In this document: one piece after another, positions 23,215 to 42,335 of the stretch
Position numbering within the stretch: the first letter of the stretch is position 1
Layout: the number at the start of each line of letters is the position of its first letter
From: a virus
Taxonomy: Duplodnaviria > Heunggongvirae > Uroviricota > Caudoviricetes
Reading direction: 5' to 3' (one strand)
Virus record (IMG/VR): IMGVR_UViG_3300045988_149348
Length of the DNA stretch: 42,988 nt
The notes under the pieces: generated by a model
Databases searched by the model: none
What the model was told of the DNA's origin: nothing
The model's input: only the letters and a program-made list of their open reading frames with translations
Program-made: the position numbers and the translations under genes

Positions 23215-23290
23215 TGGTGGCCCCTACCGGATTTGAACCGATGACCGTGCGATTATGAGTCGCCTGCTCTAACCACTGAGCTAAGGGGCC
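23215..23290 (-). tRNA. tRNA with CAU anticodon (Met or Ile2/lysidine type)
   Basis: 76-nt cloverleaf folded by hand: 7-bp acceptor stem, GCTC/GAGC D stem, anticodon loop CUCAUAA, T loop TTCAAAT, 3' CCA encoded. The 5' 42 nt match E. coli ileX-type tRNA as recalled. Confidence 0.8.
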
Positions 23291-31832: not shown

Positions 31833-31850
31833 TTAACGAACTCCAGTTAA

Positions 31851-31865
31851 ACCACGATATGTGGT
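31851..31865. promoter_or_regulatory. operator, ACCAC-N5-GTGGT family (ACCACGATATGTGGT), Cro-side
   Basis: Perfect 15-bp inverted repeat in the cro leader; imperfect neighbour ACCACATATCGTGAG at 31872..31886 falls in the spacer of a TTGAAA-17-TTTAAT promoter on the minus strand. Confidence 0.6.
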
Positions 31866-31953
31866 ATTAAAACCACATATCGTGAGTTTTTCAATGGGCG
31901 AAACAAAAAATAACCTTCTATTTGTGGTCCACCTCTCGTCTTACCATGTGAAA

Positions 31954-31968
31954 ACCACTAAATGTGGT
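31954..31968. promoter_or_regulatory. operator, ACCAC-N5-GTGGT family (ACCACTAAATGTGGT), repressor-side
   Basis: Perfect inverted repeat just upstream of a TATAAA -10-like hexamer (31973..31978) and the CI-like gene start. Confidence 0.6.
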
Positions 31969-32005
31969 AATGTATAAATAACCCACCATTCACGATTGAT
32001 GAGAC

Positions 32006-32662
32006 ATGAAAAGCAACGACGAGAACATCAAGAAAGAAATAGGTCTGCGCATTCAGACTCTACGGAAACAATCCGGCATGACTGCCGGAGATCTCCAGCA
32101 AGTCACTGGAATAGGCTTAAGCACCTTGCAGAACTATGAGGCCGGATTAAGACAACCATCTATACCTGCCATCAAGAAAATCGCGCACGCCCTGAAAGCA
32201 TCAGCGCCTTATATCGCGTGCTTAACAGATAACCCGTTCCCACCCCAGAATACTAACGCTCCTGTTATTCCTGGGCTTGTAGCTATAAAAAATGACATAG
32301 CATCGCACGCCGGAGAAAAGCCAGTGCTGGCGATAGAACAGGAGATTCTACGAAGCAAGAACATCAACCCATCGTCTCTGTCAGTTCTCCAGAGCAACGA
32401 TGAGTTAATGTCACCAACAATATCCCCTGGCTCCCAAGTCCTGATTAATACAGACGATACAGAGATTCATGAGGGGATCTATGCCCTTGAAGACAGAAAT
32501 GGCCTGGTTGTTTTGAGGCACTGTAGAGTCATACCGGGTGACAATGCTGTTATGCTGTCAACCGAAAGGGATGCTGAAATGAACACTAAGCATCTGAATA
32601 ACGAGGAATTTAAGCGTTATAAAGTTCTTGGCCGCGTAGTTAGTGTTGTCAACTGGTTATGA
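32006..32662 (+). CDS. CI-like repressor (HTH_XRE N-domain + LexA/S24-like C-domain)
   Basis: 218 aa; N-terminal helix-turn-helix (LQQVTGIGLSTLQNYEAG); C-terminal ELMSPTISPGSQVLIN aligns by eye with the S24 GDSMxPxIxxGDxVLVD motif. Confidence 0.7.
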   Translation: MKSNDENIKKEIGLRIQTLRKQSGMTAGDLQQVTGIGLSTLQNYEAGLRQPSIPAIKKIAHALKASAPYIACLTDNPFPPQNTNAPVIPGLVAIKNDIASHAGEKPVLAIEQEILRSKNINPSSLSVLQSNDELMSPTISPGSQVLINTDDTEIHEGIYALEDRNGLVVLRHCRVIPGDNAVMLSTERDAEMNTKHLNNEEFKRYKVLGRVVSVVNWL

Positions 32663-32704
32663 TACACAGCACGGCGAAAGCCGTGCATTTCTACGCTCAA
32701 AAAA

Positions 32705-32719
32705 ACCACATTTTGTGGT
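32705..32719. promoter_or_regulatory. operator, ACCAC-N5-GTGGT family (ACCACATTTTGTGGT)
   Basis: Perfect inverted repeat between the CI-like gene and 32755..33129, followed by TTGACA. Confidence 0.55.
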
Positions 32720-32754
32720 TTTGACAACATGTAAAAGTATAAAAGAGGCTACGC

Positions 32755-34446: not shown

Positions 34447-34469
34447 TAAAAAAGGCCCCCGAAGGGGCC
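34447..34469 (-). terminator. rho-independent terminator (minus-strand orientation)
   Basis: GGCCCC-CGAA-GGGGCC hairpin with an A-run on the plus side, giving a U-run on the minus strand after the small peptide ORF. Confidence 0.55.
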
Positions 34470-34475
34470 TAATCG

Positions 34476-34598
34476 CTACTTGCTGCTAATGTTTATCGTC
34501 ACATTCAGAGCGTTATCAGTAATCTTCCAACCCTCCCCATGTGGCGTAAACAAAGCTCCAGTAACAACGATAAAAATACACATGTAGTATTTTTTCAT
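34476..34598 (-). CDS. small hydrophobic peptide (40 aa), candidate membrane peptide
   Basis: MKKYYMCIFIVVTGALF...; AAGGG 8 nt upstream of ATG 34598; own terminator downstream. Low confidence. Confidence 0.3.
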   Translation of the reverse strand: MKKYYMCIFIVVTGALFTPHGEGWKITDNALNVTINISSK

Positions 34599-34976
34599 TG
34601 TGTGGCCCTTACAGGCCGTTTCACGGCATCCCCACCGACGAAAATGACGCGAGAGCAAGCACGCTGTTTGTGCCTGCGTGGTACGGCAAGTGGATAATCC
34701 TTTCCTGAAAGTCGGTGCCCGGTTGCGAATCGGCGAAAAGGCCCCGCGTAATGTTACACCGCAGCCCCTTCATAATGAAGGGATAAAAATGTATTGTTTT
34801 TCATTAGGTTAAATACACACCACAAAAATCACTCGCTTTTGTGCTCTAATAAACCAAATTTATTTGGACAATTTTATTCAGTTGGGTAAGAATATGGTTG
34901 CTGTTTGTGCTTGCGTGGTTGTATTTATACAACAACGTAATGCTGAAAGGACCGCGAATCCGATCAGCACGAAAGA

Positions 34977-35002
34977 ACCGTCCTCAAAAGGACGGTTTTT
35001 TT
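34977..35002 (+). terminator. rho-independent terminator (plus strand)
   Basis: ACCGTCC-TCAAAA-GGACGGT followed by TTTTTT; overlaps the 3' end of the minus-strand gene 34984..35556. Confidence 0.6.
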
Positions 35003-35556
35003 GTTTCTCCCCCTTCCTTCCCAAATGATTCAAATGTTAATGAGAGTGAATCATTTGATATGTTCGATTTAGCGCCGTTATCGACCCAATTTCTGTATGC
35101 TTCATCACAACAGTACCTTACAGCAGTTGGAGTAACAGGGATGCCGCCCCCAAATGAGAATCCCATTGAGCTAATGCTAACTCTTTCGAATGGCCTATTT
35201 CTCAATGCTTCAAACCCCTTGCTATTAAAGTAACGCAGCATCAGAGGTAAAAGGTTATCCTCGTCCTGACTGATTGTTCCAGGGAAAAAGTAGTAACCAT
35301 AACGGTTAAATTCGGGAATAAGAATTTCTACCAATGACATGAAATTCACTGGAGTAATATTAAGGGCTGTGAAAGCACCAAAAAGGGCGTCAACTGTTAA
35401 TACAGACTGCCCGTTCTCTATCTTTGTCCATGCGTTTGGTGTTTTTCCAGCAGCTTGAGCCAGCACTCCTTGATGCACACCTCTTTCTAGCCTAAGTTCT
35501 TTTATGATCATTAGGTGAATTGTTGAAAAACATGAGTTTTTTGACTGTTCAATCAT
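34984..35556 (-). CDS. HTH_XRE-family DNA-binding protein with uncharacterised C-terminal domain
   Basis: 190 aa; helix-turn-helix VLAQAAGKTPNAWTKIENGQSVLTVD; GGGGA ribosome-binding site 6 nt upstream of ATG 35556. Confidence 0.55.
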   Translation of the reverse strand: MIEQSKNSCFSTIHLMIIKELRLERGVHQGVLAQAAGKTPNAWTKIENGQSVLTVDALFGAFTALNITPVNFMSLVEILIPEFNRYGYYFFPGTISQDEDNLLPLMLRYFNSKGFEALRNRPFERVSISSMGFSFGGGIPVTPTAVRYCCDEAYRNWVDNGAKSNISNDSLSLTFESFGKEGGETKKPSF

Positions 35557-35692
35557 TTTTTATCCCCATACTGAATTTTTTCTTGTTCCCGACTTTAACA
35601 AAACCCCACAACTCAGGACTGATTGATTCCTTACAGGAACTATACATTCCCATTTTTAGCATATCAAGAAAATTAAAAGCCCCGCATTCAAA

Positions 35693-35707
35693 CCCACACT
35701 ATGTGGT
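35693..35707. promoter_or_regulatory. operator, ACCAC-N5-GTGGT family (CCCACACTATGTGGT, one mismatch)
   Basis: Immediately upstream of an extended -10-like TGTTAAAAT (35711..35719) that precedes the candidate small-RNA region. Confidence 0.5.
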
Positions 35708-35737
35708 TTAGTCTGTTAAAATCCCTCTGTATTGACA

Positions 35738-35839
35738 TAAATGCGCCATTGGTGGACACTTTCCGAGCCGTAGCAAAATCTACGGTCGGGATTGGAACCC
35801 CGTAGACACAATGGCGCATACCGCGTTAGCGGTTTTTTT
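35738..35839 (+). ncRNA. candidate c4-like antisense regulatory RNA with intrinsic terminator
   Basis: Structured ~100-nt region: GCGCCATTG...CAATGGCGC long-range stem, CCGTAG/CTACGG inner stem, then ACCGC-GTTA-GCGGT plus UUUUUUU terminator (35820..35839). 35789..35817 is complementary in two blocks (CATTGTGTC, GTTCCAA) to 35917..35941 in the downstream leader. Confidence 0.5.
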
Positions 35840-36005
35840 ATGCGTAAAGCACTGCTACACCCAAATTATGGTGGGGCGTGCGGGGGAGTCGTAAGACTCG
35901 CCGGTTCGTCATTGTGTCCGGTAGTTCCAACCCTGCACGTCTCACCACCCAATGATTGGAACCTGACGGTGGTGAGTATCCTTAACCTTTAAGGGAATCA
36001 TCACA

Positions 36006-36197
36006 ATGACAAACCTACCCCATGACTATTACGTCAACCTCGTAAAGATCCTTCTCAAGAAAGCCTCATACGCCGATAAAGTCCGCCTGGCTGAAATCAT
36101 CGAGCGCGAAGCTATGCGCATCGCCAGCAACGATAACGCTGTTTCTGACGCAAAAATCTCCCTCGTAACCAAAGTAGTTATGGGAGGTGCAAAATGA
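36006..36197 (+). CDS. icd-like small ORF, translationally coupled to the antirepressor gene
   Basis: 63-aa ORF whose TGA stop overlaps the ATG of the next gene (ATGA); AAGGG ribosome-binding site lies in a CCTTAA/TTAAGG hairpin. Confidence 0.5.
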   Translation: MTNLPHDYYVNLVKILLKKASYADKVRLAEIIEREAMRIASNDNAVSDAKISLVTKVVMGGAK

Positions 36198-37375
36198 AAA
36201 CGCTTCCGATCGTTAACACCCTACAGCCTATCCTGCATAACCAGATCCCCGTTATCACTACTGAACTACTGGCAAAGCTATACGGCACAGACGTTGATAA
36301 CATCAAAAAAAATTACTCACGTAACGCAACCCGCTTTATTGAAGGAAAGCATTTTTTCAAAGTGGCTGGCGATGAGTTAAAAACTTTGCGAGTGACTTTA
36401 AGTCACTCACAAAATTTGCGACTAGTTTTAAACGAGTCACAAAATGAAGTGCAAATTTCCCCCAAGACTCGCTCTCTCATCCTCTGGACAGAACGCGGGG
36501 CTGCACGTCATGCCAAAATGCTTGAAACTAACCAAGCGTGGGATGTATTCGAACGGCTGGAAGACTGCTATTTCAGCCAGAACGCGCAAACGGCCGCGAC
36601 CGTAACCGTCTCGCCAAACAATGCTCGTGAGGTTGTCGATACGCTCAACGCCAAACCGATGTTTTACATTAAAGTGTGCAACAACGAGCCACTCACAACC
36701 TCAGCCGATGTTGCCCAGGCATTCAGCACCACAAACAATTCCATCGTTATGGCCATCGATGCGCTACGCATTCCTCGCACGGCTGCGGCGCGTCACTTCT
36801 TTAAAGAGCAACGACCGTTGGAAGGAAGCGACCGCGAAATAACAATCTATCGCATGACAAAAGACGGATTTACCTTGCTCATGGAGAGCATCGACGGTCC
36901 AGGCGTGAAAGATATCAAGCTGGCCTACATTGAAGCCTTTAACGCTATCAGCAGCGTGTTAAAAACACAGTACGAGCGTGATCTGGCTAAACGACTGTAC
37001 CAGGAAAAAACGATTATCCGCGCGGCAACAGAGCATAATCGGCTATTAACGGAACCGAACTACAGGAAGGAACTAATCAAGGAGTTTGACAAGGCAACAG
37101 GGAAAACCAAAGCGGCGCTAAATCTGCCAGCAATGACTCAGGAAAATGTGATATCAGCCTTACTTCTTGATCTGCTCAGAAACGCCAGAGCACTTATCAG
37201 CTTTGACGAAAACCTGAATCCTCAGCTCAAGCTACTACCACCGACAGGCAAAGTAGTCGACCAGGCTGATCACAACAGCATACTCAGCGTACTGGATGCA
37301 AACCTGCCAGCCAGGACACTACAGGATCTGATAAAAACATGTGCTGATAAGCTGGCACAGAAAAGCAGACCATAA
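36194..37375 (+). CDS. antirepressor-like protein (ORF6N/KilA-N-like N-domain + Rha-like domain)
   Basis: 393 aa; N-terminal ITTELLAKLYGTDVDNIKKNYSRNATRF (ORF6N-like) and central PLTTSADVAQAFSTTNNSIVMAIDAL (Rha-like), as recalled; GGGAGG ribosome-binding site. Confidence 0.6.
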   Translation: MKTLPIVNTLQPILHNQIPVITTELLAKLYGTDVDNIKKNYSRNATRFIEGKHFFKVAGDELKTLRVTLSHSQNLRLVLNESQNEVQISPKTRSLILWTERGAARHAKMLETNQAWDVFERLEDCYFSQNAQTAATVTVSPNNAREVVDTLNAKPMFYIKVCNNEPLTTSADVAQAFSTTNNSIVMAIDALRIPRTAAARHFFKEQRPLEGSDREITIYRMTKDGFTLLMESIDGPGVKDIKLAYIEAFNAISSVLKTQYERDLAKRLYQEKTIIRAATEHNRLLTEPNYRKELIKEFDKATGKTKAALNLPAMTQENVISALLLDLLRNARALISFDENLNPQLKLLPPTGKVVDQADHNSILSVLDANLPARTLQDLIKTCADKLAQKSRP

Positions 37376-37377
37376 CT

Positions 37378-37399
37378 ACAAGGGGCTACGGCCCCTTAC
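37378..37399 (+). terminator. rho-independent terminator after the antirepressor gene
   Basis: AAGGGGC-TAC-GGCCCCTT hairpin followed by a T-rich tract. Confidence 0.55.
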
Positions 37400-39065: not shown

Positions 39066-39365
39066 TCAGATGTTAAACGCTATTCGTTTTCCTGTGGGAA
39101 GCTCAACATCCAGGCTTAATTTGCCTCCCATAGCTTCAACGTAACGCTTTAATGTCGCCAGCTTTAAATCATTTCCGCGCTGCTCCAGCTTTGTTACTGC
39201 TGGCTGGCTTATACCCATCGCCTCAGCAACCTGTTTTTGTGATAACTGGAGTTCTTCACGCATCATCTGCAAGCCGACCTCAAGAATCATCTCATCTGCC
39301 ATTTCTTTAATTCGCGCCTGGCTTTCAGGTGAACGGCTGGCAATCACCTCATCTAATGTTCTCAT
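39066..39365 (-). CDS. HigA-like antitoxin (HTH_XRE)
   Basis: 99 aa; helix-turn-helix LSQKQVAEAMGISQPAVTKLEQ; start overlaps the stop of the upstream toxin-like gene. Confidence 0.6.
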   Translation of the reverse strand: MRTLDEVIASRSPESQARIKEMADEMILEVGLQMMREELQLSQKQVAEAMGISQPAVTKLEQRGNDLKLATLKRYVEAMGGKLSLDVELPTGKRIAFNI

Positions 39366-39718
39366 TACTTGCTCTCCAGTGTGTTCAGATGTGCTGCAAA
39401 CTCATCCTCAGCTATACGCACCAGTTTTTTATAAAACCGCTTATCGTTACTTTTGTCTCCTGCACAAAGAACGATAGCCCGGCGAATCGGATCGAACGCA
39501 TAAAAGGCTCTTATCGGACGGCCAGAAAACTGAACGCGAAGCTCTTTCATATTTTTGTACCGAGAACCTTTTACGGTATCGGCATATGGCCTGGGTAACT
39601 CAGGTCCGTAAACCTGTAGATTTTTCAAATCAGCCAAAACCTTTTCCTGAAGAGCGTCTTCTTGCTCATTTAGCCAGTCGTCAAATCGCTGGCTAAAAAG
39701 TACCGTCCACATGATCAA
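39365..39718 (-). CDS. HigB/RelE-family (Gp49-like) addiction-module toxin
   Basis: 117 aa; W.V.F...F..WL...GS....MKELR...YRA.Y......IVL..G.K pattern as recalled for the killer-protein family; toxin-first order. Confidence 0.6.
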   Translation of the reverse strand: MIMWTVLFSQRFDDWLNEQEDALQEKVLADLKNLQVYGPELPRPYADTVKGSRYKNMKELRVQFSGRPIRAFYAFDPIRRAIVLCAGDKSNDKRFYKKLVRIAEDEFAAHLNTLESK

Positions 39719-42148: not shown

Positions 42149-42190
42149 TTCCATATCTGGTCACTTTCCAACCAGACACCCACAATCATA

Positions 42191-42205
42191 ACCACGTTAC
42201 GTGGT
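42191..42205. promoter_or_regulatory. operator, ACCAC-N5-GTGGT family (ACCACGTTACGTGGT), upstream of repA
   Basis: Perfect 15-bp inverted repeat in the spacer of a putative minus-strand promoter with -10 TATGAT. Confidence 0.55.
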
Positions 42206-42335
42206 TTTAAGAGAACTCTACCACAACACTTTCGGTCATGCACGAAGTCTCTCACTGATCGAACGATAATCCACCAGTAAAAGGATCTAAATTGGATCTC
42301 GTTTTGCGAGCATCATACTACTGGCCTAACTCCAG

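What the first reader, a model, noticed from the sequence alone, without database searches (positions are those of the whole stretch)
36006..37375. Translationally coupled small ORF plus ORF6N/Rha-type antirepressor
An ATGA stop-start overlap links a 63-aa ORF to a 393-aa two-domain antirepressor-like protein, the icd-ant arrangement of P1-type phages. Together with the apparently non-cleavable CI-like repressor, this suggests antirepressor-driven induction.
Basis: partly seen in the sequence, partly recalled or inferred. Interest (0 to 1): 0.45.

Follow-up and report, generated by a model that had tools for sequence, protein, structure and literature searches.

The report
P1-type RNA-gated antirepressor operon
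This is the anti-immunity switch of a 48-kb E. coli phage-plasmid, in which a small antisense RNA (C4) blocks translation of a 63-codon gene that must be translated for the downstream antirepressor-like protein to be made; it is a complete but ordinary new member of the system known from phages P1, Gifsy-1 and the Shiga-toxin phages.

Summary
A 63-aa ORF (36006-36197) overlaps a 393-aa ORF (36194-37375) by ATGA, and the large protein carries ORF6N and Phage_pRha domains.

Directly upstream lie an isrK/a1b1 leader RNA (35767-35839) and a C4 antisense RNA (35864-35952). The two C4 loops are complementary to two sites in isrK. They are also complementary to two sites downstream, and the second of these spans the ATG of the 63-aa ORF.

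Ten relatives carry five different loop/target specificities, and all three copies always change together.

The ant Shine-Dalgarno is buried in a hairpin inside the small ORF. That hairpin is conserved in distant homologues.

The small ORF is a real protein (dN/dS about 0.1). It is unrelated to P1 Icd and travels with the RNA cassette in front of different antirepressor types.

The ORF6N domain is 50% identical to Gifsy-1 AnrP, which induces its prophage when expressed.

A conserved CI-like repressor (32006-32662) has an S24-like domain without the catalytic serine. Its operator-like palindrome also sits just upstream of isrK.

Verdict: a new member of a known kind. Antirepressor activity, its target and its trigger remain inferred.

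The parts
35692..35708 (.). Operator-like palindrome ACCCAC-N5-GTGGTT, of the type clustered upstream of the CI-like repressor gene. It marks the left edge of the conserved immI-like module.
   Evidence: Pattern AACCAC-N5-GTGGTT with up to 2 mismatches gives 8 hits against 1.41 expected; 0 of 100 shuffles reach 8. It is conserved in all 10 family loci, and homology begins exactly here. It is absent at this position in the sister family L020.
35714..35722 (+). Putative extended -10 promoter TGTTAAAAT. Its -35 region would be covered by the palindrome, making it a possible analogue of the C1-controlled P1 promoter P2c4/P51a.
   Evidence: Read from the sequence; conserved in the family. Inferred only; the consensus scanner did not report it.
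35732..35760 (+). Promoter of the operon (PisrK): TTGACA, 17 nt, GACACT, ending 6 nt before the first base of isrK.
   Evidence: Sequence. It aligns with the annotated P1 promoter P1c4/P51b (TTGACC...TATAGT) and with the Yersinia prophage promoter.
35767..35839 (+). isrK-type leader RNA carrying upstream target copies a1 (TTGGAAC, 35792-35798) and b1 (ACACAATGG, 35806-35814). It ends in an intrinsic terminator (stem 35820-35833 plus a T-run).
   Evidence: Rfam RF01394, 67.7 bits against 50. Terminator scan. Site positions. The P1 leader matches c4-a1b1 and, below threshold, isrK.
35864..35952 (+). C4 antisense RNA gene. It has a long outer stem and two inner hairpins; b' (GTCATTGTGT, 35908-35917) lies in the loop of hairpin 2, and a' (GTTCCAA, 35924-35930) lies in the single-stranded stretch.
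   Evidence: Rfam RF01695, 77.8 bits against 45, E 1.1e-13. MFE -46.1 kcal/mol with the expected shape.
35956..35962 (+). Target site a2 (TTGGAAC) on the mRNA, 7/7 Watson-Crick complementary to a'.
   Evidence: It changes together with a' and a1 in three specificity types within the family.
36001..36010 (+). Target site b2 (TCACAATGAC), complementary to b'. It contains the ATG (36006-36008) of the 63-aa ORF.
   Evidence: It changes together with b' and b1 (CACAATG / CATCATG / CACCATG types).
36006..36197 (+). 63-aa protein gene (phrog_7886, no known function). It is the translational gate for the downstream gene.
   Evidence: ORF. phrog_7886 full length, E 2e-46. 34 clusters, all Enterobacterales. 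dN/dS 0.06-0.14. No similarity to P1 Icd.
36157..36186 (+). Hairpin that pairs the ant Shine-Dalgarno (GGGAGG, 36181-36186) with CUCCCU (36157-36162) inside the small ORF. This is the coupling structure.
   Evidence: The same hairpin occurs in L005, L007 and L010 with compensatory synonymous changes. The P1 icd 3' end folds similarly.
36194..37375 (+). 393-aa antirepressor-like protein: ORF6N domain (aa 12-109), Rha domain (aa 168-252) and a rare helical C-terminal domain (aa about 255-393).
   Evidence: Pfam. phrog_8244 plus many 'anti-repressor' PHROGs on the N-terminus. 50% identity to Gifsy-1 AnrP, E 2e-49. The C-terminal domain occurs in only 7 clusters of 1.84 billion and always follows a Rha domain.
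36284..36469 (+). Hypervariable segment of the ORF6N domain (aa 31-92). It contains a 30-bp (10-aa) direct repeat at 36381-36440.
   Evidence: In alignment A1, residues 1-30 and 93-393 are nearly invariant while 31-92 are mosaic with copy-number variation. Repeat. One allele (P0119) matches the Gifsy-1 AnrP segment.
37380..37397 (+). Intrinsic terminator-like hairpin closing the operon. It is shared with the convergent small ORF.
32006..32662 (+). CI-like repressor (218 aa): an HTH_3 domain plus a degenerate S24-like domain lacking the catalytic Ser. It is the most likely target of the antirepressor and the likely binder of the palindromes.
   Evidence: Pfam HTH_3 E 4.5e-11; Peptidase_S24 E 0.0018, below the cut-off. 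S24 is hit in 10 of 12 family members. An invariant D-x-L-M-x-P-T-I motif has Leu where Ser is expected. It is 99-100% identical in all family loci. Three palindromes lie in its upstream region.
34984..35556 (-). Accessory 190-aa HTH protein transcribed divergently from the operon. It is not a core part of the module.
   Evidence: HTH only. It is present in the window, L001, L002 and partly in L016. It is absent in L003, L013-L015, L017 and L018, where the antirepressor operon is intact.

Best explanation
The finding is the protein-coding half of a P1-type 'immI' anti-immunity operon carried by a roughly 48-kb myovirus-type phage-plasmid of E. coli.

**Proposed mechanism**
1. Transcription starts at a promoter ending 6 nt before isrK. 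Most transcripts probably stop at the isrK terminator, giving a short leader RNA that carries sites a1 and b1.
2. Read-through transcripts contain the C4 RNA, which by homology with P1 is processed into a stable antisense RNA.
3. The two exposed C4 sequences, a' and b', pair with a2 and b2 on the read-through mRNA. Because b2 contains the start codon of the 63-aa gene, ribosomes cannot start there.
4. The Shine-Dalgarno of the 393-aa gene is locked in a hairpin inside the small gene, and its ATG overlaps the small gene's stop (ATGA). With no translation of the small gene there is no antirepressor. By analogy with P1, the untranslated RNA is probably also terminated by Rho.
5. When C4 is out-titrated or mismatched, the 63-aa protein and the ORF6N-Rha protein are made. 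This could happen through excess short isrK RNA acting as a decoy, through a burst of transcription on infection or derepression, or through a heteroimmune relative.
6. The large protein then counteracts the conserved CI-like repressor (32006-32662), which cannot cleave itself, and pushes the element into lytic growth.

**Shown here:** the parts, their order, the complementarities and their covariation, the coupling hairpin, the protein domains, and the homology to AnrP.

**Inferred:** C4 processing, Rho polarity, the decoy role of isrK, direct binding of the antirepressor to the CI-like repressor, and the natural trigger.
For: **RNAs.** C4 and isrK are present at gathering score directly upstream on the same strand.

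**Geometry.** It matches the annotated P1 immI:
- C4 ends 54 nt before the small ORF, against 51 nt in P1.
- The a1-b1 spacing is 15 nt, against 14 nt in P1.
- The small ORF and ant overlap by 4 nt in both.

**Complementarity.** The a' sequence pairs 7/7 with both a1 and a2. The b' sequence pairs 8-9/9 with b1 and b2, and b2 spans the ATG.

**Covariation.** Five specificity types occur among 10 family members, and further types occur in a Yersinia prophage and in P1. Cognate a-sites pair 7/7 and non-cognate ones 4-6/7.

**Coupling.** The SD-sequestering hairpin is conserved with compensatory synonymous changes.

**The small ORF.** It is under strong purifying selection. In other prophages it precedes P22_AR_N antirepressor-type genes with the same 4-nt overlap.

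**The ORF6N part.** It is 50% identical to Gifsy-1 AnrP. AnrP sits behind isrK and C4, is translationally coupled to an upstream ORF, and induces Gifsy-1 when expressed (PMC4825925). VT2-Sakai Ant (ORF6N plus P22_AR_C) sits behind the same RNAs. Knocking out the Phi24B ant impairs induction (PMC3064807).

**The repressor.** The CI-like repressor lacks the catalytic Ser. A palindrome of the same type as those upstream of its own gene lies 24 nt upstream of the -35 hexamer of the operon's promoter.

**The leader fold.** In the full leader, isrK a1/b1 pair with C4 a'/b' (z = -4.6). Duplex energies of the C4 loops with isrK are at least as good as with a2/b2.
Against: - No protein in this locus is homologous to P1 Icd or Ant1.
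- ORF6N and Rha are both predicted DNA-binding modules. No ORF6N protein has been shown to bind a repressor, and the AnrP authors themselves suggest transcriptional activation.
- The variable part of the protein (aa 31-92) does not co-vary with the invariant CI-like repressor.
- The S24-like assignment of the repressor is below Pfam's cut-off. It was not confirmed by hhalign or by structure prediction.
- The operator-like site upstream of isrK is missing in the sister family L020.
- No LexA box or other trigger was found.
- The -10 element of the promoter is weak (GACACT).
Confidence: 0.65

Rival explanations
1. The RNA gate is as described, but the 393-aa protein is not a protein-binding antirepressor. 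Instead it is a sequence-specific DNA-binding regulator (KilA-N-like ORF6N plus winged-helix Rha) that activates or competes at lytic promoters, acting like a Cro/Rha-type lytic regulator.
For: - Both recognisable domains belong to families regarded as DNA-binding.
- The Rha plus C-terminal-domain unit exists on its own as roughly 250-aa proteins.
- The AnrP study attributes the rise in antQ operon RNA 'most likely' to activated transcription.
- The gene contains an 18-nt inverted repeat and a 30-bp direct repeat that could be binding sites.
Against: - The homologous position behind the same RNA cassette and small ORF is occupied by P22_AR_N proteins in other prophages. In P1 it is occupied by Ant1, a proven repressor-binding protein.
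- Stx-phage Ant joins the same ORF6N domain to the C-terminal domain of P22 Ant.
Confidence: 0.22
2. The operon serves mainly in competition between elements rather than in self-induction. On this reading the protein acts in trans on repressors of co-resident or superinfecting prophages, or protects against them. The diversified C4 specificities and the hypervariable ORF6N segment would then reflect an arms race among related elements.
For: - Five C4 specificities occur in one otherwise 94-97% identical family.
- The ORF6N segment aa 31-92 is mosaic, and one allele is shared with Gifsy-1 AnrP, while the cognate CI-like repressor is invariant.
- Trans-acting antirepressors are documented for Gifsy phages (PMC3121763, listed).
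Against: - No co-resident target is identifiable from a single window.
- In P1 the same diversification (P1 against P7) is explained by heteroimmunity of the element's own switch.
Confidence: 0.1
3. The 63-aa ORF is only a leader peptide with no function of its own, or is an annotation artefact of the RNA region.
For: - In Gifsy-1 the coupling ORF (orf45) overlaps the C4 region and is conserved only at the nucleotide level.
- In some relatives the ORF is annotated as a 95-aa 'ash family protein' that runs into C4 DNA.
Against: - dN/dS is 0.06-0.14 with saturated synonymous sites.
- The length is constant at 63 aa and the N-terminus MTNLPHDYYV is invariant across E. coli, Yersinia, Erwinia and others.
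- The ORF lies wholly downstream of C4.
- ORFs that overlap C4 are not conserved in frame or end point.
Confidence: 0.03

Closest known systems
Bacteriophage P1/P7 immI operon (c4 - icd - ant1/ant2)
   Same: - The promoter aligns, and a leader with a1/b1 sites precedes a homologous C4 antisense RNA.
- The a2/b2 target sites lie at the translation start of a small ORF.
- The small ORF and ant overlap by 4 nt (ATGA), and a hairpin covers the ant Shine-Dalgarno.
- Specificity types are defined by the loop sequences, as in P1/P7 heteroimmunity.
- The host element is a plasmid prophage whose repressor has dispersed operators.
   Different: - The small protein is unrelated to Icd, and the large protein (ORF6N + Rha + C-terminal domain) is unrelated to Ant1/Ant2 (KilAC/ANT). 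No in-frame Ant2 start is evident.
- b2 covers the start codon rather than the Shine-Dalgarno.
- The leader has an isrK-type intrinsic terminator.
- The primary repressor is a CI/Xre-type HTH protein with an S24-like domain, not P1 C1.
Salmonella Gifsy-1 isrK - orf45 - anrP - isrJ locus (Hershko-Shalev et al. 2016, PMC4825925)
   Same: - An isrK RNA with a terminator is followed by a C4-family RNA.
- An upstream ORF is coupled through AUGA to an ORF6N-domain protein that is 50% identical over about 130 residues.
- In that system, translation of the upstream ORF is required for AnrP synthesis, and AnrP expression induces the prophage.
   Different: - In Gifsy-1 the coupling ORF overlaps the C4 region and is not conserved as a protein. 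Here it is a separate, protein-level conserved 63-aa gene downstream of C4.
- AnrP is 187 aa with ORF6N only; this protein adds a Rha domain and a rare C-terminal domain.
- No isrJ follows the gene.
- The published model invokes alternative mRNA folds and trans-activation by short IsrK and does not treat the downstream RNA as a C4 repressor.
Shiga-toxin phage ant loci (VT2-Sakai orf34-ant; Phi24B ant)
   Same: - isrK, c4-a1b1 and C4 RNAs lie immediately upstream.
- An upstream ORF overlaps ant by 4 nt.
- The ORF6N domain is 65-69% identical.
- The Phi24B ant knock-out shows less efficient induction.
   Different: - The Stx Ant is ORF6N + P22_AR_C (244 aa).
- The coupling ORF (orf34) overlaps C4.
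- The 63-aa gene is absent; the ant ATG sits where the 63-aa ORF starts here.
Satellite phage P4 immunity (seqA - CI RNA - seqC)
   Same: The CI RNA belongs to the same RNA clan (CL00128). It is a processed antisense RNA with complementary sites both upstream and downstream in its own transcript.
   Different: P4 uses the RNA to terminate transcription of replication genes, not to gate an antirepressor. This comparison rests on the literature as summarised in PMC4825925 and on general knowledge.
Phage-plasmid N15 anti-immunity locus (small processed CA RNA, icd-like gene, antA/B/C; Ravin et al. 1999; Mardanov & Ravin 2007)
   Same: It is a plasmid prophage whose antirepressor operon is held off by a small processed RNA. 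This rests on my own knowledge and was not checked here.
   Different: N15 is linear with a telomere resolvase, and its inducing antirepressor is LexA-controlled. Here no LexA box was found. Homology was not tested.

Membership tests
P1-type immI (C4-RNA-controlled antirepressor operon) | C4-family antisense RNA gene in the same transcription unit, upstream of the antirepressor gene | tested here: met
   Rfam RF01695, 77.8 bits (gathering score 45), at 35864-35952 (+), 54 nt before the small ORF.
P1-type immI (C4-RNA-controlled antirepressor operon) | Two exposed RNA sequences (a', b') complementary to two mRNA sites (a2, b2) at the translation-initiation region of the first ORF | tested here: met
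   a'/a2 pair 7/7 and b'/b2 pair 8-9/9; b2 spans the ATG at 36006. The sites co-vary in five family types plus the Yersinia prophage and P1.
P1-type immI (C4-RNA-controlled antirepressor operon) | Upstream duplicate target sites a1/b1 in the leader (Rfam c4-a1b1 / isrK) | tested here: met
   isrK RF01394, 67.7 bits. a1 lies at 35792-35798 and b1 at 35806-35814. The P1 leader hits c4-a1b1 and, below threshold, isrK.
P1-type immI (C4-RNA-controlled antirepressor operon) | Small ORF translationally coupled to the antirepressor gene | tested here: met
   ATGA overlap and a conserved SD-sequestering hairpin. Functional coupling itself cannot be tested in silico.
P1-type immI (C4-RNA-controlled antirepressor operon) | Small ORF is an Icd homologue (cell-division inhibitor) | tested here: not met
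   BLASTP of the 63-aa protein against P1 Icd gave no alignment at E up to 100. Neither protein has a Pfam family.
P1-type immI (C4-RNA-controlled antirepressor operon) | Antirepressor homologous to P1 Ant1/Ant2 (KilAC/ANT domain) | tested here: not met
   P1 Ant1 matches PF03374 ANT, whereas the 393-aa protein has ORF6N + Phage_pRha and no ANT hit. BLASTP gave only chance matches.
P1-type immI (C4-RNA-controlled antirepressor operon) | Product binds and inactivates the primary prophage repressor | not testable with these tools
   Only indirect support exists: homology to AnrP and positional equivalence to P22_AR_N proteins.
P1-type immI (C4-RNA-controlled antirepressor operon) | Repressor operator at the operon's promoter region (P1 Oc4/Op51) | tested here: inconclusive
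   A palindrome of the type found upstream of the CI-like gene lies at 35692-35708 and is conserved in 10 of 10 family loci. It lies upstream of the main -35, it is absent in sister family L020, and its binder is unproven.
Gifsy-1 isrK-orf45-anrP type locus | isrK RNA with intrinsic terminator followed by an ORF6N-domain AnrP homologue | tested here: met
   isrK with a terminator at 35820-35839. AnrP is ORF6N-only and 50% identical, E 2e-49.
Gifsy-1 isrK-orf45-anrP type locus | Coupling ORF overlaps the conserved RNA region (orf45 conserved in nucleotides, not amino acids) | tested here: not met
   Here the coupling ORF lies downstream of C4 and is conserved as a protein. ORFs overlapping C4 vary in frame and end point.
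Pfam ORF6N (PF10543) / Phage_pRha (PF09669) | Domain match above Pfam's gathering score | tested here: met
   ORF6N scores 73.5 bits against 27.8, and Phage_pRha 46.9 bits against 29.9.
LexA/lambda-CI type self-cleaving repressor (for the 218-aa protein at 32006-32662) | S24 peptidase domain with catalytic Ser-Lys dyad and Ala-Gly cleavage site | tested here: not met
   - S24 is matched only below threshold: 18.4 bits against 23.3, in 10 of 12 family members.
- The motif D-x-L-M-x-P-T-I has an invariant Leu at the Ser position, and R-H sits where Lys is expected. Alignment to the S24 motif was done by eye.
- The structure model was too poor to confirm the fold.

The most novel reading that the evidence does not exclude
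The 63-aa protein may be a dedicated third component of a mobile 'isrK-C4-small protein' cassette. Such a cassette can be plugged in front of unrelated antirepressors: ORF6N-Rha here, P22_AR_N elsewhere.

On this reading the protein has its own conserved activity. Candidates are an Icd-like host cell-division or growth block, a partner or chaperone of the antirepressor, or a factor that counteracts C4 or Rho to make the switch bistable.

The hypervariable 10-aa-repeat segment of the ORF6N domain would then be a separately exchangeable specificity determinant, shared between phage-plasmids and integrated prophages such as Gifsy-1.
Probability: 0.25. Interest if true: 0.55.

Novelty: new member of a known kind. 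Interest (0 to 1): 0.33.

Why it matters
The locus shows that a widespread, little-studied family of roughly 48-kb E. coli, Salmonella and Shigella phage-plasmids uses the classic P1 anti-immunity logic. One member is the plasmid of reference strain ATCC 25922.

Within this family:
- the RNAs are homologous to those of P1;
- the proteins have been swapped for unrelated ones;
- at least five mutually non-cognate RNA specificities are present.

The locus also ties together three bodies of literature that are usually treated apart: P1 c4-icd-ant, Gifsy-1 IsrK-AnrP, and Stx-phage Ant. In all three, isrK is the a1/b1 leader of a C4 operon and the 'orf45/ash' reading frames lie on the C4 gene.

Practically, this gives a testable handle on how these plasmids switch to lytic growth when the repressor cannot self-cleave. 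It also flags a conserved 63-aa protein of unknown function for study.

It does not reveal a new kind of mechanism.

Tried and rejected
- **AlphaFold2 of the 393-aa protein** with 18 close homologues gave mean pLDDT 33.8. The model was unusable, so no fold search was run.
- **AlphaFold2 of the 218-aa repressor** with 12 homologues gave a confident HTH but pLDDT 30-50 for the C-terminal domain. The S24 fold could not be confirmed.
- **LexA-box search** (CTGT-N8-ACAG, up to 1 mismatch) found no site in 35557-35766. The total count was at chance level, so SOS control of the operon is not supported.
- **The adjacent 190-aa HTH protein as the cognate repressor** was rejected. The gene is missing from 6 of 10 relatives that keep an intact operon, and the conserved block begins to its right.
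- **An orf45-like ORF over C4 (35840-35992) as a conserved coupling ORF** was rejected. Its frame and end point are not conserved.
- **Tandem Repeats Finder** found nothing in the ant gene. The 30-bp repeat was seen only with the repeat finder.
- **Naming the phage-plasmid family as pSLy3** was rejected, because pSLy3 belongs to the SSU5 supergroup.
- **NCBIfam and PADLOC scans** added nothing specific.
- **tblastn of the 63-aa protein against phage records** found only the three Yersinia phages vB_YpM_39/41/44.
Full report
**1. The observation**

ORF 36006..36197 (+, 63 aa) and ORF 36194..37375 (+, 393 aa) share ATGA at 36194-36197.

Pfam places an ORF6N domain at residues 12-109 (E 1.7e-20) and a Phage_pRha domain at residues 168-252 (E 4e-12) of the large protein. 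There is no ANT/KilAC match, and the small protein matches nothing. In PHROGs the small protein is phrog_7886 and the large one phrog_8244, both 'unknown function'. The N-terminal third of the large protein also hits many 'anti-repressor' families.

**2. The setting**

The window is a phage-plasmid.
- It carries a full set of myovirus structural genes: terminase, portal, major head, sheath, tape measure and baseplate.
- It also carries an IncFII-type RepA, a ParA, a resolvase and toxin-antitoxin genes.
- The region is 93-97% identical to roughly 48-kb circular plasmids of E. coli, E. albertii and Salmonella, including the 48,488-bp plasmid of E. coli ATCC 25922. It is similarly close to the Yersinia phages vB_YpM_39/41/44.
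- It is not the pSLy3 group, which belongs to the SSU5 supergroup.

**3.

Rfam finds an isrK RNA at 35767-35839 (67.7 bits; cut-off 50) and a C4 antisense RNA at 35864-35952 (77.8 bits; cut-off 45). Both lie on the + strand directly upstream of the small ORF.

A promoter (TTGACA 35732-35737, 17 nt, GACACT 35755-35760) ends 6 nt before isrK. It aligns with the annotated P1 promoter P1c4/P51b. isrK ends in an intrinsic terminator.

C4 folds into the expected long stem with two inner hairpins. Its hairpin-2 loop (b', GTCATTGTGT, 35908-35917) and the following single-stranded stretch (a', GTTCCAA, 35924-35930) each have two complementary sites:
- a1 at 35792-35798 and b1 at 35806-35814, inside isrK;
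- a2 at 35956-35962 and b2 at 36001-36010, downstream.

Site b2 contains the ATG of the 63-aa ORF.

The layout mirrors the annotated P1 immI region (a1, b1, c4, a2, b2, icd, ant1), down to three details:
- the distance from C4 to the small ORF is 54 nt here and 51 nt in P1;
- the a1-b1 spacing is 15 nt here and 14 nt in P1;
- the small ORF and ant overlap by 4 nt in both.

The P1 leader itself hits Rfam c4-a1b1 and, below threshold, isrK. isrK is therefore the a1/b1 leader of a C4 operon.

**4. The pairings are functional, not chance**

I compared ten members of the phage-plasmid family: three plasmid records and six contigs fetched through variant Ant proteins, plus the window. They fall into five specificity types:

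| Element | Variants seen |
|---|---|
| a' | GTTCCAA, ACGCCAA, AGGCTAA |
| b' | CATTGTG, CATGATG, CATGGTG |

In each type a1 and a2 match a' 7/7, and b1 and b2 match b' 8-9/9. Non-cognate a-pairs reach only 4-6/7. A Yersinia enterocolitica prophage and P1 add two further types with the same three-way covariation. This is the P1/P7 heteroimmunity principle, repeated inside one family.

**5. Translational coupling**

The Shine-Dalgarno of the large ORF (GGGAGG, 36181-36186) is predicted to pair with CUCCCU (36157-36162) in a hairpin inside the small ORF.

The same hairpin forms in the homologous loci from Erwinia, an unnamed enterobacterium and Yersinia. The inner stem changes by compensatory synonymous substitutions. 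The 3' end of P1 icd folds in the same way over the ant1 Shine-Dalgarno.

The 4-nt overlap is kept in every homologous locus.

**6. The small ORF**

It is a real protein gene.
- Against homologues 70-87% identical in protein, synonymous sites are saturated while dN/dS is 0.06-0.14.
- The family is small: 34 clusters among 5.8 billion sequences, all Enterobacterales. Length is constant and the N-terminus MTNLPHDYYV is invariant.
- It shows no similarity to P1 Icd.

Its neighbours are informative. In Erwinia tracheiphila, Yersinia and another enterobacterium it is again preceded by a C4-family RNA (C4, or sRNA-Xcc1, which occupies the C4 position in those loci) and followed, with a 4-nt overlap, by a different kind of gene. 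That gene encodes a protein with the N-terminal domain of P22 antirepressor. The RNA cassette and the small protein therefore travel together in front of interchangeable antirepressor-type genes.

Reading frames that overlap C4 itself are not conserved in frame or end point in this family. These correspond to the 'orf45' of Gifsy-1, orf34 of VT2-Sakai, and the 'ash family protein' annotation in NZ_CP070025. The Pfam Phage_ASH match lies on the part translated from C4 DNA.

**7. The large protein**

- Its ORF6N part is 50% identical (E 2e-49) to Gifsy-1 AnrP. I confirmed that AnrP is an ORF6N-only protein sitting behind isrK, c4-a1b1 and C4.
- Published experiments on that locus show that translation of the upstream ORF, which ends in AUGA, is required for AnrP synthesis. 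They also show that AnrP expression raises antQ-operon RNA and induces Gifsy-1 (PMC4825925).
- The ORF6N part is also 65-69% identical to the Ant of Stx phages such as VT2-Sakai. There the same RNAs precede an ORF6N + P22_AR_C protein. In the related phage Phi24B, an ant knock-out induces less efficiently (PMC3064807).
- Residues 255-393 form a rare domain. Only 7 clusters among 1.84 billion representatives contain it, always after a Rha domain. It occurs either as a roughly 250-aa Rha protein or as the three-part architecture seen here.
- Within the family, residues 1-30 and 93-393 are almost invariant. Residues 31-92 are mosaic, with copy-number variation of a 10-aa (30-bp) repeat. One allele matches the AnrP segment.

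**8. Which repressor?**

*The adjacent 190-aa gene.* The divergently transcribed gene at 34984-35556 has only an HTH. It is absent from six of ten relatives that keep an intact operon. The conserved block begins to its right. It is an accessory insertion.

*The universal candidate.* The 218-aa protein at 32006-32662 is 99-100% identical in all family loci.
- It has an HTH_3 domain and a sub-threshold Peptidase_S24 match, which recurs in 10 of 12 members of its small family.
- An invariant D-x-L-M-x-P-T-I motif has Leu where S24 peptidases have the catalytic Ser (comparison with the S24 motif by eye).
- Structure prediction and profile comparisons could not confirm the fold, so 'non-cleavable' is likely but not proven.

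*Operator-like palindromes.* A palindrome AACCAC-N5-GTGGTT occurs eight times at up to two mismatches, against 1.4 expected (0 of 100 shuffles). The positions of interest are:
- three upstream of this repressor gene;
- one before the par operon;
- one at the repA start;
- one at 35692-35708, 24 nt upstream of the -35 hexamer of the operon's promoter.

The last overlaps the -35 region of a possible extended -10 promoter (TGTTAAAAT, 35714-35722). It resembles P1's C1 operator Oc4. It is absent at that place in the sister family, where the repressor is 65% identical but the operators elsewhere are the same.

**9. Mechanism**

*Best supported.* C4 made from the operon's own read-through transcript occludes the start codon of the 63-aa gene. 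Without ribosomes on that gene, the ant Shine-Dalgarno stays buried, and the RNA is probably terminated by Rho as in P1. No antirepressor is made and lysogeny is stable. Relief of C4 control allows synthesis of both proteins, and the large one counteracts the CI-like repressor.

*Short isrK as a possible natural antagonist of C4.* It carries both target sites. Its predicted duplexes with the C4 loops (-18.9 and -15.1 kcal/mol) are at least as stable as those of a2/b2 (-16.5 and -8.8). In the full leader the a1/b1 region pairs with a'/b' (z = -4.6). In Gifsy-1, IsrK supplied in trans raises anrP translation more than 100-fold.

*Still inferred.* Processing of C4, Rho polarity, the decoy role, the protein-protein interaction and the trigger are all inferred. 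No LexA box is present.

*Main rival.* The large protein may be a DNA-binding regulator rather than a repressor-binding protein, since both of its recognisable domains are of DNA-binding type.

**10. Novelty and verdict**

Every element of the logic is already known from P1/P7, Gifsy-1 and the Stx phages, and the RNAs are in Rfam. Four things are new at the level of detail:
- this protein pair (a conserved 63-aa protein of unknown function, and an ORF6N-Rha-CTD protein);
- placement of b2 on the start codon;
- five RNA specificities within one phage-plasmid family;
- the hypervariable ORF6N segment.

I rate it a new member of a known kind, of modest interest.

Noticed in passing
window 34448-34746 (-): A full-length ryfA RNA match (136.6 bits against 80) sits between the par genes and the immI-like module. 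It contains a 40-codon ORF (MKKYYMCIFIVVTGALFTPHGEGWKITDNALNVTINISSK, about 34476-34598, - strand). It looks like a TimP/RyfA-type type I toxin locus serving plasmid maintenance, and it is conserved in L001-L003.
   Followed up: partly
window 31850-31866, 31871-31887, 31953-31969, 32704-32720, 35692-35708, 42190-42206: Operator-like palindromes AACCAC-N5-GTGGTT occur at regulatory positions: upstream of the CI-like gene, before orf124-parA, before isrK, and at the repA start. This suggests that one repressor controls lytic genes, partition, plasmid replication and the anti-immunity operon, as C1 does in P1. There are 8 hits against 1.4 expected.
   Followed up: partly
L002 4028-4315; L020 8537-8734; window 35840-35992: The annotations 'ash family protein' and Pfam Phage_ASH (PF10554) fall on reading frames translated from the C4 RNA gene. 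In this family their frames and ends are not conserved, so the Pfam family probably captures, at least in part, translated RNA-gene sequence.
   Followed up: partly
window 36284-36469 (Ant residues 31-92); direct repeat 36381-36440, inverted repeat 36381-36417: This is a hypervariable, mosaic segment inside an otherwise almost invariant protein. It shows copy-number variation of a 10-aa/30-bp repeat among relatives, and one allele is shared with Gifsy-1 AnrP. Its meaning is unknown; it could be a target-specificity loop, a recombination hot spot, or DNA sites within the gene.
   Followed up: partly
window 34984-35556 (-): A 190-aa HTH protein with an uncharacterised C-terminal half is present in only a minority of family members. 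It exists in at least two alleles (82-93% identity) and is inserted just left of the operator. It may be an accessory immunity or exclusion gene.
   Followed up: partly
window 39066-39718 (-): A HigB/Gp49-type toxin (117 aa) overlaps by one base an HTH antitoxin (99 aa). This is a type II toxin-antitoxin pair conserved across the family.
   Followed up: no
L005 3876-3960, L007 3882-3965: In the Erwinia and ESL0689 prophages the RNA upstream of the 63-aa ORF scores as sRNA-Xcc1 (RF02221) rather than C4, and no isrK is called. The cassette therefore exists in a more divergent RNA version.
   Followed up: no
L009 4001-6276: A 65-aa homologue of the small ORF occurs in what looks like a P4-like satellite or island, with integrase, AlpA, and DUF4222 plus an AAA_25 primase-helicase-like gene. 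It is followed by 56- and 62-aa ORFs instead of an antirepressor. No C4 was found at gathering score there.
   Followed up: no
window 23215-23290 (-): A single tRNA-Met (CAT) gene lies between the packaging and early regions.
   Followed up: no
L020 8731-10064: In the sister phage-plasmid family (Citrobacter, Klebsiella aerogenes, Yokenella; repressor 60-66% identical) the whole ORF6N-Rha-CTD gene is intact and overlaps the 63-aa ORF by ATGA. The automatic gene call lists only the Rha part. Several plasmid annotations ('Rha family transcriptional regulator') appear to have the same truncated start.
   Followed up: partly
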